A stretch of DNA of 64,000 nt from Myxococcales bacterium (lineage in GTDB: Bacteria > Myxococcota_A > UBA9042 > JABWCM01): the NCBI GenBank assembly GCA_013360285.1, contig JABWCM010000006.1:11553-75552 (forward strand), given 5' to 3'. Of the stretch, positions 12,391-19,697 are shown in pieces (position 1 is the first letter of the stretch; the number at the start of each line of letters is the position of its first letter). The notes beneath the pieces are model-generated. The model saw nothing but the letters and a program-made list of their open reading frames with translations. It was not told the DNA's origin and searched no databases. Made by a program: the position numbers and the translations under genes.

Positions 12391-12405
12391 TGCCATTTGA
12401 TGGCA
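12391..12405. promoter_or_regulatory. Perfect palindrome TGCCA-N5-TGGCA, candidate upstream activator site for the operon-encoded RtcR-like enhancer-binding protein
   Basis: tgccatttgatggca read directly, about 77 nt upstream of the -24 element and followed by an AT-rich stretch (tgtaaaacaacatgattacaattcattattgttttcaaaaag), as is typical between an upstream activator site and a sigma-54 promoter. Confidence 0.4.
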
Positions 12406-12480
12406 AAAAAATTCCGAATCATTTTTAGTGATGCGTGTAAAACAACATGATTACAATTCATTATTGTTTTCAAAAAGGAA

Positions 12481-12496
12481 TGGCATGGATGGTGCA
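12481..12496 (+). promoter_or_regulatory. Sigma-54 (-24/-12) promoter candidate: TGGCATG-N4-GTGCA
   Basis: GG at 12482-12483 and GC at 12494-12495 have the canonical GG-N10-GC spacing. It matches consensus TGGCACG-N4-TTGCA at 9 of 11 defined positions. It lies 37 nt upstream of a strong RBS (AGGAG 12523-12527) and ATG 12533. Confidence 0.5.
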
Positions 12497-12532
12497 ATAA
12501 CCTCCCACGCGACCCATGACCCAGGAGAAACC

Positions 12533-16578: not shown

Positions 16579-16581
16579 GCC

Positions 16582-18111
16582 ATGACCAACCCCATTTCCC
16601 GTTTTGCTACAGTCCCCATCACGTCTCCCTTACCCCCTTGTTGGTTGCGGAAGGGGCCAACAAGACCCGACGATGATAGCAATCGCTCCGCAATCGTGTG
16701 GCGTGTTGGCCCCAAAACACATTTCCGACAAGCGCTTGTGCAAACCGTGGAAAACGCCAAAGACGTTGTCCTGGTGGCCTCGTTTCTGTTGGCCGATGAA
16801 ACGCTCGCGAAAACGTTGATTGAAGCCGCCCAACGAGGTGTTCGGGTATATGTGCTTACCGCATCCGAGGCCCGATTGTCCAAGGTGGTCTCCGACGAGG
16901 ACGCCTTTGATGTCCGGATGGTGGAGGAACACAAAAAGCTGCTGGATCGGCTTGCTGAACACGTCGTTCTGCGCACCGCCGAACATTTCCATGCGAAGTT
17001 TCTTGTGACGGACCCAGCCACTTGTCCCGTGGGATGGATTTCCACTGCGAACTTCAATCGGGCACTGGAGGACTCTGTGGAGCTGGGTGTTAAGTTAACC
17101 GAACAGGCCGCGGTTGAACTGGCGGGCTGGTTTTGTAACGCCTTTTGGCTCGAATCGGACCGGGAATTGATCGAAAAAGGGCGTTTGGCTAAGGTCACAG
17201 CTCCGCCTGCCCAGCCAAAGTCGCCGTCGTCACATTCCATTCGGGTCACTGCTAAGGATCACGGTGAACTGCGAGAAACCACACTACAGCTCATCCGAAA
17301 CGCACAAAACCGTTTGGTTATCGTCAGCTATGGTGTACAGGACGATCATGCCACGACGAAGGCGATTGAAGAACGGGCGCAGGCGGGGGTCAAAATCACG
17401 TTGCTGACGCGCCCCCGGGCGGCGATTGCCGCTGCAGTGAAGCGCCTTGCGACCGCCGGGGTCACGATTCTCGCACACGATAAGTTACACGCCAAAGCCA
17501 TTCTCAGTGATCAGCGGGGATTGGTGATGACCGCCAATCTGCACACCGTGGGACTGGACCAGGGTTTTGAGGTCGGCGTACTTTTGGACGACAATGGAAC
17601 GCGGGAACTGGATGACGTGTTGTCCCAATGGATTCAAACCTTCCCGTGGTGTTACGCCACAGCCGCTCCGCGGGACAGCCATCTTGGTGAACTGTGCCTG
17701 GCCGACTTAGGGTTACGCACAGGGCGCCGCATGGTCCAACCCGAAATCGTTCATCCATTGCCACCGGTTGTGGCCGACTCCGTTGTCACCATGGAAGAGG
17801 CGCCGACTCCCAAATGGGTTCCCGTGGAGGAAAAAGAAACCTATTTTCACAAGGTACGCTACAAGTGGCAGGTGGTTCCCCCACGTTTGCCAAAGGAGGC
17901 GAAAGAACGGTTGTCGCCGGTTGTGGATGCAGAAAAACACGACGATGGCCGCTCCGCGAAACAGGGAAAGGGGGTAACGCACGGTGTGCCCTTCGATCCT
18001 CCCCTATACGATCATAACGAAATGGTGTATGTGTTGCTGAGACCGGGGGACAACCTCGACAGAGTGCGACGTGTCGCAGCCGAGTTAGGCGGAAAGGTGG
18101 TTGTAAAATGA
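16582..18111 (+). CDS. Phospholipase-D-superfamily protein with two HKD motifs (putative nuclease; MkoB-like)
   Basis: HAKFLVTD....STANFN (HxK-x4-D) and HAKAILSDQRGLVMTANLH (HxK-x4-D-x6-xTxN) within one 509-aa chain. Confidence 0.75.
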   Translation: MTNPISRFATVPITSPLPPCWLRKGPTRPDDDSNRSAIVWRVGPKTHFRQALVQTVENAKDVVLVASFLLADETLAKTLIEAAQRGVRVYVLTASEARLSKVVSDEDAFDVRMVEEHKKLLDRLAEHVVLRTAEHFHAKFLVTDPATCPVGWISTANFNRALEDSVELGVKLTEQAAVELAGWFCNAFWLESDRELIEKGRLAKVTAPPAQPKSPSSHSIRVTAKDHGELRETTLQLIRNAQNRLVIVSYGVQDDHATTKAIEERAQAGVKITLLTRPRAAIAAAVKRLATAGVTILAHDKLHAKAILSDQRGLVMTANLHTVGLDQGFEVGVLLDDNGTRELDDVLSQWIQTFPWCYATAAPRDSHLGELCLADLGLRTGRRMVQPEIVHPLPPVVADSVVTMEEAPTPKWVPVEEKETYFHKVRYKWQVVPPRLPKEAKERLSPVVDAEKHDDGRSAKQGKGVTHGVPFDPPLYDHNEMVYVLLRPGDNLDRVRRVAAELGGKVVVK

Positions 18112-19697
18112 AGTCAAAGCAGCCTCAATCCAAAGACGTCGTTCTCGTGAGTTGGATCAGCATCGGGGGAGGCGCCGGTCCATTGGTTACCGCGATCAAT
18201 CATCCGAAAAGCCCCTATCGGTCTCGTGTTGCCCGCGTTTATTTATGTTATCGCAATGCTAATCCTCCCGACGGAGAGCGGGAGCGTGCGGCTTTGAAAG
18301 TCAACCTTTCCGGAATGCACCAAGAGCTGGACCCTCATTGCCCCGACGTTGTTCAACTTCCATGGACAACCAAGGCGACACCCACCGACCACGAAAAGAT
18401 TAAAAAGTTTGCTGAGGGGGTATTGCAACGTGTACGCAAAGAAAATCCCGAAGCCACCATCGCGATTCACCTGTCGCCGGGAACTCCGGCGATGCATGCC
18501 GTGTGGTTGGTGTTGGGGACTACCGGATTTGTTTCCGACCCGGTCGAGCTTTTGCAAACCACCGAATTAGACAAAGTACCCGACGATCAATCCCCGGTTC
18601 GGATCATCCAGCTCAAACTCGACACCTGGCTGCACCGTTATCGCAGTGGCCAACCCCAAAAGACACGAAGTCATGACGATGGTCACGTATGGGATCCGTC
18701 GCAGCTCCAAAGTACCGCGATGAAAAAAGTGTTGGACGACATCGATACCTGGGCTCCGTTGCGGGTGCCGGTGCTGCTGCTCGGTGAACGGGGGACCGGA
18801 AAAACGACCCTCGCCAATCTGTTGCGCGCAAGAAGCCCATTTCAAACAGCGACCATCAAAGAATGGCCCGTCGTCGTTTGTGGGCAATTTCGGTCCAATC
18901 TCCAACTCGCACGGTCGGAACTGTTTGGACATGTCAAGGGTGCGTTCACCGATGCAAACGAAACCCGGCATGGGCGCCTCAAACAAGCAGACGGCGATAC
19001 CTTGTTTCTCGACGAAATCGCCGACATGGACAGAGAAACCCAACGCCTCTTGATGGCCGCCATAGAAGGGCGCGGGTTCCACATGCTGGGCGACAACCAA
19101 AATTTGGTCCAATCCCAATTTCGATTGATATGTGCCACCAATCGTTCCATCGGCCAATTGCGCGACGAATACCTTGATCTCGATTTTCTGGACCGCATTG
19201 CAACGGTCGTGATCCGCGTTCCATCCCTTCGGGAATGTATCGAAGATCTTCCCTATTTATGGGATCTCGTGCTTAGAAAAACCACAGCAGTTTTGAACAT
19301 GACCCCACCTGGGTGGGACGAATACCGACAAAACAGTACCTTGCTCAAAACTATCCAAAGCCACCCCTTACCCGGCAATTTCCGCGATTTACAACGGGCA
19401 GCTTACCACTTACTCGCCGCGTTGAACGCCCAAAAAACACCGGAAGACGTTCTGAAACGCGCAGTGGATGCCTTGGGCGATTCGCATAGTGGTCACCCCG
19501 AACGACCCGAACACGCCATCAACTATGCCGAACGCCTCCCCATTCAGGACCTAGGTGCCGAAGTCGAAGCTTACGAACACCGATGGATTGAAGCCGCCTT
19601 GGCCAAAGCCGACGGAAATATCAGCAAAGCCGCGAGGCTCCTCGGGATGGAGCGAAAAACTCTTGAGTACAAACTGAAACATCGCCAGAAGTCGTGA
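18108..19697 (+). CDS. rtcR-like: RtcR-like sigma-54-dependent transcriptional activator: N-terminal CARF-like sensor domain, AAA+ sigma-54 interaction domain, C-terminal Fis-type HTH
   Basis: AAA+ Walker A VLLLGERGTGKTT. ELFGHVKGAFTDA (the GAFTGA sigma-54 contact loop, with the Val variant GHVKGAFT that RtcR has, to my recollection). LFLDEIADMD. RLICATN. C-terminal GNISKAARLLGMERKTLEYKLK. N-terminal roughly 200 aa (VVLVSWISIGGGAG...IAIHLSPGTPAMHAVWLVL) is a Rossmann-like pattern resembling the RtcR CARF domain, not a receiver. Start overlaps the PLD stop (ATGA 18108-18111). Confidence 0.8.
   Translation: MKSKQPQSKDVVLVSWISIGGGAGPLVTAINHPKSPYRSRVARVYLCYRNANPPDGERERAALKVNLSGMHQELDPHCPDVVQLPWTTKATPTDHEKIKKFAEGVLQRVRKENPEATIAIHLSPGTPAMHAVWLVLGTTGFVSDPVELLQTTELDKVPDDQSPVRIIQLKLDTWLHRYRSGQPQKTRSHDDGHVWDPSQLQSTAMKKVLDDIDTWAPLRVPVLLLGERGTGKTTLANLLRARSPFQTATIKEWPVVVCGQFRSNLQLARSELFGHVKGAFTDANETRHGRLKQADGDTLFLDEIADMDRETQRLLMAAIEGRGFHMLGDNQNLVQSQFRLICATNRSIGQLRDEYLDLDFLDRIATVVIRVPSLRECIEDLPYLWDLVLRKTTAVLNMTPPGWDEYRQNSTLLKTIQSHPLPGNFRDLQRAAYHLLAALNAQKTPEDVLKRAVDALGDSHSGHPERPEHAINYAERLPIQDLGAEVEAYEHRWIEAALAKADGNISKAARLLGMERKTLEYKLKHRQKS

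What the first reader, a model, noticed from the sequence alone, without database searches (positions are those of the whole stretch)
12391..19697. Mokosh-like helicase + PLD-nuclease operon with an extra unknown gene, wired to an RtcR-type CARF/sigma-54 regulator
Four co-directional genes are translationally coupled: ATGA overlaps at 15411-15415 and 18108-18111, and a 3-nt gap at 16579-16581.
- Gene 1 carries the complete Upf1/DNA2-family SF1 helicase motif set (GPPGSGKTT, DEAS, QHRMHPE, TVDRFQGHEAD, LNVALTRAR).
- Gene 3 carries two HKD motifs (PLD nuclease superfamily).
A COG1112-type helicase plus a PLD nuclease is the gene content of the Mokosh type I antiphage system (established knowledge). 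This locus differs in three ways:
- a 389-aa protein with no recognisable domain is inserted between them;
- the helicase has an unassigned roughly 280-aa N-terminal domain and a long insertion between motif II and the RMHP motif;
- the operon ends in an RtcR-like activator (CARF-like N-domain, GHVKGAFT-type AAA+ core, Fis HTH) and starts with a sigma-54 promoter.
RtcR normally senses 2',3'-cyclic-phosphate RNA fragments and switches on rtcBA RNA repair. Here it appears rewired to autoregulate a helicase/nuclease module. The inference is a nucleic-acid-targeting defence or RNA-surveillance system expressed only after RNA damage such as phage- or toxin-induced tRNA cleavage. I do not know of a described system with this arrangement.
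Basis: partly seen in the sequence, partly recalled or inferred. Interest (0 to 1): 0.9.

Follow-up and report, generated by a model that had tools for sequence, protein, structure and literature searches.

The report
Sigma-54-switched helicase–nuclease defence-like cassette
This is a conserved, horizontally spread four-gene cassette (Upf1-like helicase, a winged-helix protein of unknown function, a PLD nuclease and an RtcR-like sensor/activator) with its own sigma-54 promoter and activator-binding sites, most likely an inducible anti-phage or nucleic-acid surveillance system that no curated library names yet.

Summary
Four + strand genes are tightly coupled: g1 12533-15415, g2 15412-16578, g3 16582-18111, g4 18108-19697.

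- g1 is an Upf1-like SF1 helicase.
- g2 matches no profile. Its model shows a winged helix plus unmatched domains.
- g3 is a PLD nuclease with two intact HKD motifs.
- g4 is a CARF-AAA+-HTH sigma-54 activator of the RtcR_PspF1 type. It is not an RtcR equivalog.

New here:
- The same cassette, in the same order, recurs in more than 20 loci from distant phyla and on a Vibrio plasmid. Flanks are unrelated and sometimes mobile or defence-related.
- A -24/-12 promoter lies 39-52 nt upstream of g1 in 13-14 of 17 regulator-containing loci.
- A pair of TGGC-N8-GCCA dyads lies about 150 and 130 nt upstream of g1 in 14 of 17.
- The three cassettes without g4 have neither element, and their PLD is about 100 residues shorter.

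So g4 almost certainly drives its own operon. Defence function and an RNA-damage ligand are inferences.

The idea of RtcR-like regulators wired to defence modules is already published (Makarova 2014; Bell 2024). This cassette appears unnamed. It is a new variant of a known kind.

The parts
12380..12395 (.). Upstream dyad 1 (TGGACCTTTTGTGCCA), the distal half of a tandem pair. Predicted upstream activating sequence bound by the g4 HTH.
   Evidence: Pairs of GG-N10-CC dyads spaced 20-22 bp lie at about -150 and -130 from the g1 ATG in 14 of 17 g4-containing loci and 0 of 3 g4-less loci. Chance expectation is 0.07 per 300 nt. Binding by g4 is inferred.
12401..12416 (.). Upstream dyad 2 (TGGCAAAAAAATTCCG), 21 bp from dyad 1 (two helical turns).
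   Evidence: This copy is degenerate in the window; orthologous loci have near-perfect palindromes such as TGGCGGTTTTCCGCCA and TGGCCAAATATGGCCA.
12481..12496 (+). Sigma-54 (-24/-12) promoter-like element TGGCATGGATGGTGCA, with exact GG-N10-GC spacing, 37 nt upstream of the g1 ATG.
   Evidence: An element scoring at least 9 of 11 lies 39-52 nt (its first base) upstream of g1 in 13 of 17 regulator-containing loci. Background is 1.1e-4 per position. It is absent in the 3 loci without g4.
12533..15415 (+). g1: 960-aa Upf1-like SF1B helicase. It has a family-specific N-terminal region (aa 1-240) and a conserved folded insertion of about 240 aa (aa 470-712) between RecA1 and RecA2.
   Evidence: Pfam AAA_11 1.3e-29 and AAA_12 6.4e-33. 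PADLOC MkoA 4e-76, helicase core only. AF2 pLDDT 79.9. Foldseek UPF1 4.7e-21, then IGHMBP2, SETX, Sen1, Dna2. Motif order. More than 120 full-length orthologue clusters.
15412..16578 (+). g2: 388-aa protein with no sequence-family assignment. It has an N-terminal winged helix-turn-helix inside a beta-rich domain, plus C-terminal domains without a solved-structure match. Invariant C-terminal motif [YA]DL[GN]LW.
16582..18111 (+). g3: 509-aa PLD-superfamily nuclease with two HKD motifs in one chain (aa 137-144 and 303-310). It has a C-terminal extension of about 100-120 aa that occurs only in cassettes that also carry g4.
   Evidence: Pfam PLDc_2 6.7e-23 in two stretches. PADLOC DrmC 4e-22 and MkoB 6e-18. 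NCBIfam DrmC_I 85 bits, below its cut-off of 133. HKD invariance and long versus short forms.
18108..19697 (+). g4: 529-aa RtcR-like bacterial enhancer-binding protein. Divergent CARF domain (aa 1-190, SPGTPAMH motif), sigma-54 AAA+ core (aa 201-369; Walker A GERGTGKTT, Walker B LFLDEI, GAFTDA loop) and Fis-type HTH (aa 487-524).
   Evidence: Pfam Sigma54_activat 1.5e-36 and HTH_8 3e-13; Cas_Csm6_CARF 1.3e-3, below cut-off. PADLOC RtcR_PspF1--CARF_AAA_HTH 2e-132 over 3-467 of 468; Csx1/Csm6 CARF 7e-8. NCBIfam RtcR 195.8 bits against a cut-off of 650. 28% identity to E. coli RtcR over aa 92-456. hhalign of the N-domains gives 73% probability.

Best explanation
The locus is a self-contained, horizontally mobile four-gene cassette that is kept silent and switched on by its own last gene.

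Shown by comparison:
- The order helicase, wHTH protein, PLD nuclease, CARF-bEBP is conserved across phyla.
- A -24/-12 promoter and a tandem pair of dyads lie upstream of g1 exactly when g4 is present.

Inferred mechanism:
1. A small basal amount of g4 sits on the two dyads about 85-100 bp upstream of the promoter.
2. A nucleic-acid-derived ligand reaches its CARF domain. By analogy with RtcR this would be RNA fragments ending in 2',3'-cyclic phosphate, made during phage infection or toxin action. Alternatively the signal is a protein contact.
3. The AAA+ ring then assembles and remodels sigma-54 RNA polymerase.
4. The whole operon, g4 included, is transcribed. This is positive feedback.

The induced effector is a complex of three parts:
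- the Upf1-like 5'-to-3' helicase, which translocates on foreign RNA or single-stranded DNA;
- the wHTH protein, as adaptor or target recogniser;
- the two-HKD PLD nuclease, which cuts the substrate, as in Mokosh.

The net effect is an inducible anti-phage or anti-mobile-element response.
For: - Synteny: the same order, orientation and overlapping stop/start codons occur in 15 complete four-gene cassettes (14 loci L001-L025 plus one Calditrichaeota contig) and in 6 contig-truncated loci with the same order. Hosts are Myxococcota, Alpha-, Beta- and Gammaproteobacteria, Calditrichaeota and Phycisphaeraceae, plus a Vibrio plasmid. Three loci (two of them Latescibacterota) carry a three-gene form without g4.
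- Regulation: the promoter is position-conserved. The dyad pair is position-conserved. Both are missing in L011, L015 and L021, which lack g4.
- A divergent clade (L022, L025) keeps the architecture but uses different half-sites (GGGT-N6-ACCC). That fits co-evolution of regulator and site.
- g4 is a full-length member of the CARF-AAA-HTH RtcR_PspF1 profile and aligns with E. coli RtcR.
- Catalytic motifs of the helicase and PLD are intact and invariant.
- Both activities are required for defence in Mokosh (Millman preprint).
- Flanks are unrelated between genomes. They include a serine recombinase (L006), integrase plus DruA (L020), SIR2 plus DUF87, HsdM plus another PLD protein (L010), and transposase plus methyltransferase (L021).
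- No rtcA or rtcB lies in the window or beside g4 in the loci whose neighbours were annotated.
Against: - No experiment of any kind supports it. Defence is inferred from domain content and patchy, island-like distribution.
- In the window itself the neighbours are ordinary: kinase, sigma factor, methyltransferase, Fur, katG.
- The ligand is unknown. The g4 N-domain misses Pfam RtcR at E <= 0.1, so it need not bind what RtcR binds.
- The sigma-54-contacting loop is GAFTDA rather than GAFTGA in the window and in L006. Effect unknown.
- A regulator encoded last in the operon it activates needs a basal source. No sigma-70-like promoter was found on the + strand.
- L001 and L003 have AG instead of GG at -24, and L022 has GA at -12.
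- rpoN could not be checked in this MAG.
Confidence: 0.6

Rival explanations
1. It is simply a subtype of Mokosh type I (MkoA helicase plus MkoB PLD nuclease). It works exactly as Mokosh does. g2 is an accessory subunit and g4 is a dispensable add-on regulator.
For: PADLOC MkoA 4e-76 for g1 and MkoB 6e-18 for g3. Mokosh is defined by a COG1112 helicase plus a PLD nuclease. Three-gene cassettes without g4 exist (L011, L015, L021).
Against: - The MkoA match covers only the helicase core.
- g1 has no Ser/Thr kinase domain, which type I MkoA has.
- g3 scores better against DrmC than MkoB.
- g2 is present in every cassette seen, and the helicase-g2 pair persists even where PLD is absent (L024). It looks like a core part, not an accessory.
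- g4 presence goes with a longer PLD and a dedicated promoter.
Confidence: 0.2
2. It is a free-standing relative of the cnuHE module of type II/III CoCoNuT systems: Upf1-like helicase CnuH plus 'elongated wHTH-effector' CnuE. Here the wHTH part (g2) and the PLD effector (g3) are split into two genes, the McrBC partner is lost, and the RtcR homologue has moved from the 5' to the 3' end.
For: Bell et al. report that helicases of the CnuH family are typically followed by a wHTH protein fused to variable nucleases, including two PLD domains in type III-C. They also report that type II/III-A systems are commonly headed by RtcR homologues. g2 has an N-terminal wHTH. L024 shows the helicase-g2 pair with a different partner instead of PLD.
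Against: - No McrB/McrC-like genes lie in or beside any cassette examined.
- No SmpB-like or RelE-like N-terminal domain was detected in g1.
- The large insertion in g1 lies after motif III, not after Walker A as described for CnuH.
- Direct comparison with CnuH/CnuE sequences was impossible because the supplement holding them is truncated.
Confidence: 0.3
3. It is not immunity. It is an RNA-damage housekeeping response parallel to RtcBA: the RtcR-like sensor detects broken RNA and induces a helicase-nuclease machine that clears damaged RNA or stalled complexes.
For: g4 is related to RtcR. Upf1-family helicases act in RNA surveillance. The window locus is not in a recognisable defence island.
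Against: - The distribution is sporadic and the neighbours are unrelated.
- It occurs on a plasmid and next to integrases, recombinases, transposases and defence genes. This is typical of accessory, selfish or defence cargo, not housekeeping.
- It is absent from all 5,426 complete E. coli genomes at the sensitivity used.
Confidence: 0.12
4. g4 controls some other regulon (for example rtcBA elsewhere in the genome) and is only a passenger at the end of a helicase/nuclease operon driven by another promoter.
For: The rest of this MAG could not be inspected. g4 is last in the operon, which is unusual for an autoregulator.
Against: - The promoter and dyads are conserved upstream of g1 only when g4 is present.
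- The g3/g4 4-nt overlap is conserved.
- The cassette moves as a unit between phyla and onto a plasmid.
- The NCBIfam RtcR equivalog threshold is missed by a wide margin.
Confidence: 0.05

Closest known systems
Mokosh type I anti-phage system (MkoA/MkoB; Millman et al. 2022)
   Same: A COG1112/Upf1-like SF1 helicase gene and a separate PLD-family nuclease gene lie in one operon. Both catalytic sites are intact. PADLOC MkoA and MkoB profiles hit g1 and g3.
   Different: - g1 has no Ser/Thr kinase domain.
- g1 has a different N-terminal region and a conserved insertion of about 240 aa.
- An obligatory 388-aa wHTH protein sits between helicase and nuclease.
- A dedicated CARF-bEBP regulator, sigma-54 promoter and UAS are present.
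- g3 is closer to DrmC profiles than to MkoB.
cnuHE modules and RtcR-headed superoperons of type II/III CoCoNuT systems (Bell et al. 2024, PMC11090510)
   Same: Upf1-like helicase followed by a wHTH-containing protein and a nuclease effector (PLD in type III-C). Associated with an RtcR-like CARF-AAA+-HTH activator predicted to switch the operon on in response to RNA fragments.
   Different: - No McrBC (CnuB/CnuC) and no TerY-P triad.
- The wHTH protein and the PLD are separate genes.
- The regulator is the last gene and translationally coupled, rather than at the 5' end.
- Homology of g2 to CnuE is untested.
RtcR-RtcBA RNA repair system (E. coli, Salmonella)
   Same: The regulator has the same CARF-AAA+-HTH architecture and 28% identity to E. 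coli RtcR, including LFGHVKGAFT. Its target is sigma-54-dependent.
   Different: - The regulated genes are a helicase, a wHTH protein and a nuclease instead of RNA cyclase and ligase.
- The regulator is co-transcribed with its targets instead of divergently transcribed.
- The N-domain is divergent (no Pfam RtcR hit).
- It fails the NCBIfam RtcR equivalog cut-off (195.8 against 650).
RtcR_PspF1 CARF_AAA_HTH group (PADLOC PDLC01994). To my knowledge these PADLOC models derive from the CARF census of Makarova et al. 2020. The 2014 paper (PMC4012209) already noted RtcR-like proteins linked to R-M systems instead of Rtc.
   Same: g4 matches this profile end to end (E 2e-132).
   Different: The published association is with R-M and CoCoNuT loci. 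I found no description of the helicase-wHTH-PLD cassette as its partner in the searchable library.

Membership tests
Mokosh type I | Gene with a COG1112/Upf1-like helicase domain | tested here: met
   Pfam AAA_11 and AAA_12; PADLOC MkoA 4e-76; Foldseek UPF1 4.7e-21.
Mokosh type I | Separate PLD-family nuclease gene with intact active site | tested here: met
   PLDc_2 in two stretches; MkoB 6e-18; both HxKxxxxD motifs present and invariant.
Mokosh type I | Ser/Thr kinase domain in the helicase protein (as described in Millman et al.) | tested here: not met
   No Pkinase or other kinase hit in g1 at E <= 0.1. The N-terminal 239 aa alone give nothing at E <= 5 except MlaC at 0.1.
Mokosh type I | Two-gene system | tested here: not met
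   There are four genes. g2 is present in every cassette found.
Mokosh type I | Protects against phage; needs helicase ATP site and PLD site | not testable with these tools
   Requires plaque assays.
RtcR (RNA repair regulator, NCBIfam NF038308 equivalog) | Score at or above the curated cut-off | tested here: not met
   195.8 bits against a cut-off of 650. The Pfam RtcR N-domain is not hit at E <= 0.1.
RtcR (RNA repair regulator) | CARF - sigma-54 AAA+ - HTH architecture | tested here: met
RtcR (RNA repair regulator) | Encoded next to, and regulating, rtcB/rtcA | tested here: not met
   No rtcA or rtcB in the 64-kb window or among the annotated neighbours of g4 in L001, L020, L021, L022, L025 and the Calditrichaeota contig. 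The rest of the genome is not available.
RtcR (RNA repair regulator) | [quoted passage not shown] | not testable with these tools
   Needs binding and reporter assays.
RtcR_PspF1 CARF_AAA_HTH (PADLOC PDLC01994) | Full-length profile match | tested here: met
   E 2e-132; residues 10-525 match profile positions 3-467 of 468.
Sigma-54-dependent operon with cognate bEBP | -24 GG / -12 GC promoter with exact spacing upstream of the first gene | tested here: met
   12481-12496 in the window. Position-conserved in 13-14 of 17 loci and absent in the 3 loci lacking g4.
Sigma-54-dependent operon with cognate bEBP | Upstream activating sequences (dyads) about 80-150 bp upstream of the promoter | tested here: met
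   Tandem dyads in 14 of 17 loci against 0 of 3. Binding itself is not tested.
Sigma-54-dependent operon with cognate bEBP | GAFTGA sigma-54 contact loop in the activator | tested here: inconclusive
   GAFTDA in the window and L006; GAFTGA in 11 of the 14 aligned copies and GSFTGA in L018.
CoCoNuT type II/III | McrB-like GTPase (CnuB) and McrC-like (CnuC) genes | tested here: not met
   None among the cassette genes or flanks.
CoCoNuT type II/III | Upf1-like helicase followed by a wHTH-effector protein (cnuHE) | tested here: inconclusive
   The architecture is analogous. CnuH/CnuE sequences could not be obtained for a direct comparison.
DISARM (DrmC) | DrmC equivalog score and co-occurrence with DrmA/DrmB | tested here: not met
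   85 bits against a cut-off of 133. No DrmA/DrmB-type genes in the cassette.

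The most novel reading that the evidence does not exclude
This would be a transcriptionally inducible bacterial immune module. A CARF domain fused to a sigma-54 activator senses an infection-derived nucleic-acid signal, such as cleaved tRNA with cyclic-phosphate ends made by other defence or toxin systems. It converts that signal, with positive feedback, into de novo synthesis of a helicase-wHTH-PLD effector. The PLD C-terminal extension, found only when the regulator is present, would feed back on the CARF domain, much as RtcA/RtcB do on RtcR. 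That would make it a second-line 'alarm-induced' defence rather than a constitutively poised one. It would also give the RtcR-type CARF domain a general role as a damage sensor for immunity.
Probability: 0.3. Interest if true: 0.8.

Novelty: new variant of a known kind. Interest (0 to 1): 0.62.

Why it matters
Most known anti-phage systems are thought to be made constitutively and activated after translation. Clear cases where sensing is wired to transcription through a dedicated ligand-binding activator are few, and for RtcR-like regulators they are only predicted.

This cassette is compact: four genes, one promoter and two binding sites. It is widespread, with 654 clusters at 50% identity for the signature protein. 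It occurs in culturable Pseudomonas, Pectobacterium, Vibrio, Sorangium and Stigmatella.

That makes three published predictions directly testable:
- the CARF-bEBP idea of Makarova (2014) and Bell (2024);
- the ligand of non-Rtc CARF7-type domains;
- the role of the wHTH partner of Upf1-like defence helicases.

It also supplies a natural experiment: three-gene cassettes that lost the regulator, the promoter and the PLD tail together.

Tried and rejected
- tRNA and Rfam scans of the window found nothing.
- g2 has no hit in Pfam, NCBIfam or PADLOC, even member by member at E <= 1. Its PDB sequence profile is only noise.
- Fold searches of g2 matched only the wHTH. The AFDB50 library was not available.
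- The upstream 156-aa ORF (11891-12361) was considered as a fifth gene. It was rejected because it has no homologue in any other locus.
- A look-up of the Aquipseudomonas homologue P0037 failed.
- The Makarova 2020 CARF paper is not held.
- 'PLuB system', the name of an NCBIfam model that partly hits g1, is absent from the library.
- The CoCoNuT supplement with CnuH/CnuE sequences is truncated, so no direct g1/CnuH or g2/CnuE comparison was possible.
- The cassette was not found in E. coli complete genomes (blastn with the Pectobacterium copy) or in phage genomes.
- No sigma-70-like promoter for basal g4 expression and no + strand terminator after g4 were found.
- Composition gives no sign of recent transfer in the window.
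- The last literature query was badly framed and uninformative.
- The third homology search was not used. A g4 query would have returned mostly cassette orthologues or generic bEBPs.

Full report
**1. What is in the sequence**

The region holds four + strand ORFs.
- g1 opens at GTG 12428. Its real start is almost certainly ATG 12533: GGAG lies 8 nt upstream, and MAELFY matches the family consensus MARLxY. It ends at 15415.
- g2 is 15412-16578 (388 aa).
- g3 is 16582-18111 (509 aa).
- g4 is 18108-19697 (529 aa).
- The window comes from a Myxococcales MAG (locus tag HUU55_01340).
- The window has no tRNA and no Rfam family. Composition is even.

**2. The four proteins**

*g1.*
- It carries Pfam AAA_11 and AAA_12.
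- It matches the PADLOC MkoA profile (4e-76), but only over the helicase core.
- It stays far below every NCBIfam cut-off.
- An AlphaFold model built on 24 homologues (pLDDT 79.9) has as best solved-structure matches UPF1 (4.7e-21), IGHMBP2, senataxin/Sen1, Dna2 and ZNFX1.
- All SF1 motifs are present and in order.
- Residues 1-240 and a confidently folded, conserved insertion between motif III (aa 454-461) and motif IV (aa 722-728) have no family assignment.

*g2.*
- It has no hit in Pfam, NCBIfam or PADLOC.
- Its model is confident (pLDDT 90.3, pTM 0.78).
- No Foldseek match reaches E <= 0.001.

*g3.*
- It is a PLD-superfamily protein with two HxKxxxxD motifs. They are invariant across 19 orthologues.
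- It resembles DrmC and MkoB profiles but is not a DrmC equivalog.

*g4.*
- It has a sigma-54 interaction domain and a Fis-type HTH.
- It matches the PADLOC profile RtcR_PspF1--CARF_AAA_HTH end to end (2e-132) and a Csx1/Csm6 CARF profile (7e-8).
- It is 28% identical to E. coli RtcR over residues 92-456, including IHLSPGTP/IHITTGTH and LFGHVKGAFT.
- A profile of its N-domain aligns with the RtcR N-domain (hhalign 73%, E 3e-5, 54 columns).
- It scores 195.8 bits against the RtcR equivalog cut-off of 650.
- So it is an RtcR-family paralogue, not RtcR.

**3. The cassette is a conserved, mobile unit**

- A word-indexed search with g2 found 73 clusters, almost all about 390 aa.
- A full HMM scan found 654 representatives at 50% identity, 179 of them below 1e-30. 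Most of the 150 listed are stand-alone proteins of 360-415 aa that cover the whole profile.
- Eighteen genome loci recovered through g2 carry helicase-g2-PLD(-g4) in the same order and orientation wherever the contig allows. Further loci were reached through the helicase or distant g2 relatives.
- The hosts are Stigmatella, Archangium, Sorangium and Plesiocystis; other Myxococcota; Pseudomonas, Pectobacterium, an Enterobacterales MAG, Nitrospirillum and Burkholderiales; Rhodospirillaceae and Rickettsiales MAGs; Calditrichaeota, Latescibacterota and Phycisphaeraceae.
- A divergent clade has the same four genes on a Vibrio rumoiensis plasmid and on a metagenome contig.
- Flanking genes are unrelated from genome to genome. 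They include:
  - a large serine recombinase (L006);
  - an integrase and Druantia DruA (L020);
  - SIR2 plus DUF87 (Calditrichaeota);
  - a type I HsdM and another PLD protein (Sorangium);
  - a transposase plus DNA methyltransferase (L021);
  - in Pectobacterium, guaB-guaA.
- In the window the neighbours are ordinary genes, and there is no rtcA or rtcB.
- The 156-aa ORF just upstream is not conserved elsewhere.
- The cassette was not found in 5,426 complete E. coli genomes or in phage genomes.

**4. The regulatory wiring**

This is the main new result.

*Promoter.*
- The window element TGGCATGGATGGTGCA (12481-12496) has the exact GG-N10-GC spacing of a sigma-54 promoter.
- An element scoring at least 9 of 11 against TGGCAC-N5-TTGCW lies 39-52 nt upstream of the g1 start in 13 of 17 regulator-containing loci. 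A weaker one is present in L006.
- L001 and L003 have TAGCAC-N5-CTGCT. L022 has TGGCAC-N5-TTGAT.
- The background rate of such elements in all sequence held is 1.1e-4 per position.

*Upstream dyads.*
- About 85-100 bp further upstream, 14 of 17 loci have two 16-bp dyads (consensus TGGC-N8-GCCA) spaced 20-22 bp apart.
- They sit at nearly the same place: about -150 and -130 from the ATG. In the window they are at 12380-12395 and 12401-12416.
- Chance expectation is 0.07 pairs per 300 nt.
- The divergent clade has GGGT-N6-ACCC dyads instead.
- By eye, the proteobacterial copies have an AT-rich spacer with IHF-like WATCAANNNNTTR matches. This was not tested statistically.

*Natural control.*
- Three loci (L011, L015, L021) lack g4. 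They also lack the promoter and the dyads, and their PLD is 403-426 aa instead of about 505 aa.

*Reading.* This co-variation is what one expects if g4 binds the dyads and activates the promoter of its own operon. It also suggests the PLD C-terminal extension works together with g4. Binding and activation themselves are inferred.

**5. Most likely mechanism**

*Shown:* the gene content, intact catalytic motifs, conserved order and coupling, the promoter/UAS architecture, and its dependence on g4.

*Inferred from established knowledge of bEBPs and of RtcR:*
- The CARF domain holds the AAA+ domain inactive until a ligand or partner arrives.
- Activation produces the helicase, the wHTH protein, the nuclease and more regulator.

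*Inferred from Mokosh and the cnuHE proposal:*
- The helicase translocates on foreign RNA or ssDNA.
- The wHTH protein couples it to the PLD nuclease, or targets it.

*Uncertainties:*
- The ligand is unknown. [quoted passage not shown]
- The source of basal g4 is unknown.
- The GAFTDA variant of the sigma-54 contact loop in this copy is a caveat.

**6. Comparison with what is known**

- *Mokosh type I.* It shares the helicase and PLD. It has a kinase domain that g1 lacks, and it has no g2 or g4.
- *CoCoNuT paper.* It describes Upf1-like helicases followed by wHTH-nuclease proteins (PLD in type III-C). It also describes RtcR homologues heading such superoperons, and proposes the induction logic suggested here. 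Those systems are built around McrBC homologues, which are absent here.
- *Makarova et al. 2014.* They had already separated an RtcR-like CARF-AAA-HTH family that is not linked to Rtc.
- The concept is therefore published as a prediction.
- The specific four-gene cassette, its signature protein g2, the 3' position of the regulator and the promoter/UAS evidence were not found in the searchable literature. They are also not in PADLOC v2 or NCBIfam release 20.
- RefSeq annotates the Vibrio copy only generically.

**7. Verdict**

- Novelty is that of a new variant of a known kind: a helicase plus PLD nuclease defence-type module with an RtcR-like regulator.
- Interest is moderate to high, because the system is compact, widespread and experimentally tractable. 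It would let the predicted CARF-to-sigma-54 immune signalling be tested directly.
- It is not categorically new.

Noticed in passing
window 11891-12361 (+): A 156-aa ORF ends 19 nt before the first upstream dyad. It has a weak, near full-length match to DUF4258 (E 0.007, 17 bits, below the cut-off of 25). From memory, DUF4258 is a RelE/BrnT-like toxin fold. [quoted passage not shown] The ORF is not conserved in the other loci.
   Followed up: partly
L011, L015, L021 (three-gene cassettes): Cassettes without the regulator also lack the sigma-54 promoter and the dyads. Their PLD is 403-426 aa instead of about 505 aa. The PLD C-terminal tail therefore co-occurs with g4 and may contact it.
   Followed up: partly
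L024 3671-8333: A variant in which the helicase (869 aa) is followed by a longer g2-like protein (508 aa) and a 161-aa unknown protein. It has no PLD and no CARF regulator. An NtrC-type sigma-54 activator lies on the opposite strand. This suggests the helicase-g2 pair is the core and the effector is exchangeable.
   Followed up: no
L022 (Vibrio rumoiensis plasmid 2, NZ_AP018688.1 512-7340) and L025 4323-11180: A divergent clade of the same four-gene cassette. It uses GGGT-N6-ACCC dyads instead of TGGC-N8-GCCA. In L022 the -12 element reads TTGAT rather than TTGC.
   Followed up: partly
L011 5986-10004: The helicase match is split: query residues 1-211 at 5986-6564 and residues 215-960 at 7812-10001. 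About 1.2 kb lies between the two pieces. This could be an insertion into, or disruption of, g1 in this Latescibacterota genome.
   Followed up: no
window 20224-25735 (+): A Fur-family regulator with a long N-terminal extension (322-aa ORF; FUR domain at aa 179-277) is followed by two tandem 749-aa catalase-peroxidase (KatG-type) genes.
   Followed up: no
window 4480-7017 (-): An 844-aa protein with ten hemopexin repeats (E 2.6e-145) and a weak reprolysin-type metalloprotease motif. This is an unusual domain for a bacterium.
   Followed up: no
window 37349-41779 (+), 30950-33316 (-) and 43321-48492 (-): Very large ORFs of 1476, 788 and 1723 aa. The first two have no Pfam match at E <= 1e-4. 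The 1723-aa ORF was not searched.
   Followed up: no
window 18939-18956 (g4 aa 278-283): The sigma-54 contact loop reads GAFTDA in this copy and in L006. It reads GAFTGA in 11 of the 14 aligned copies, and L018 has GSFTGA. Whether this weakens activation is unknown.
   Followed up: no
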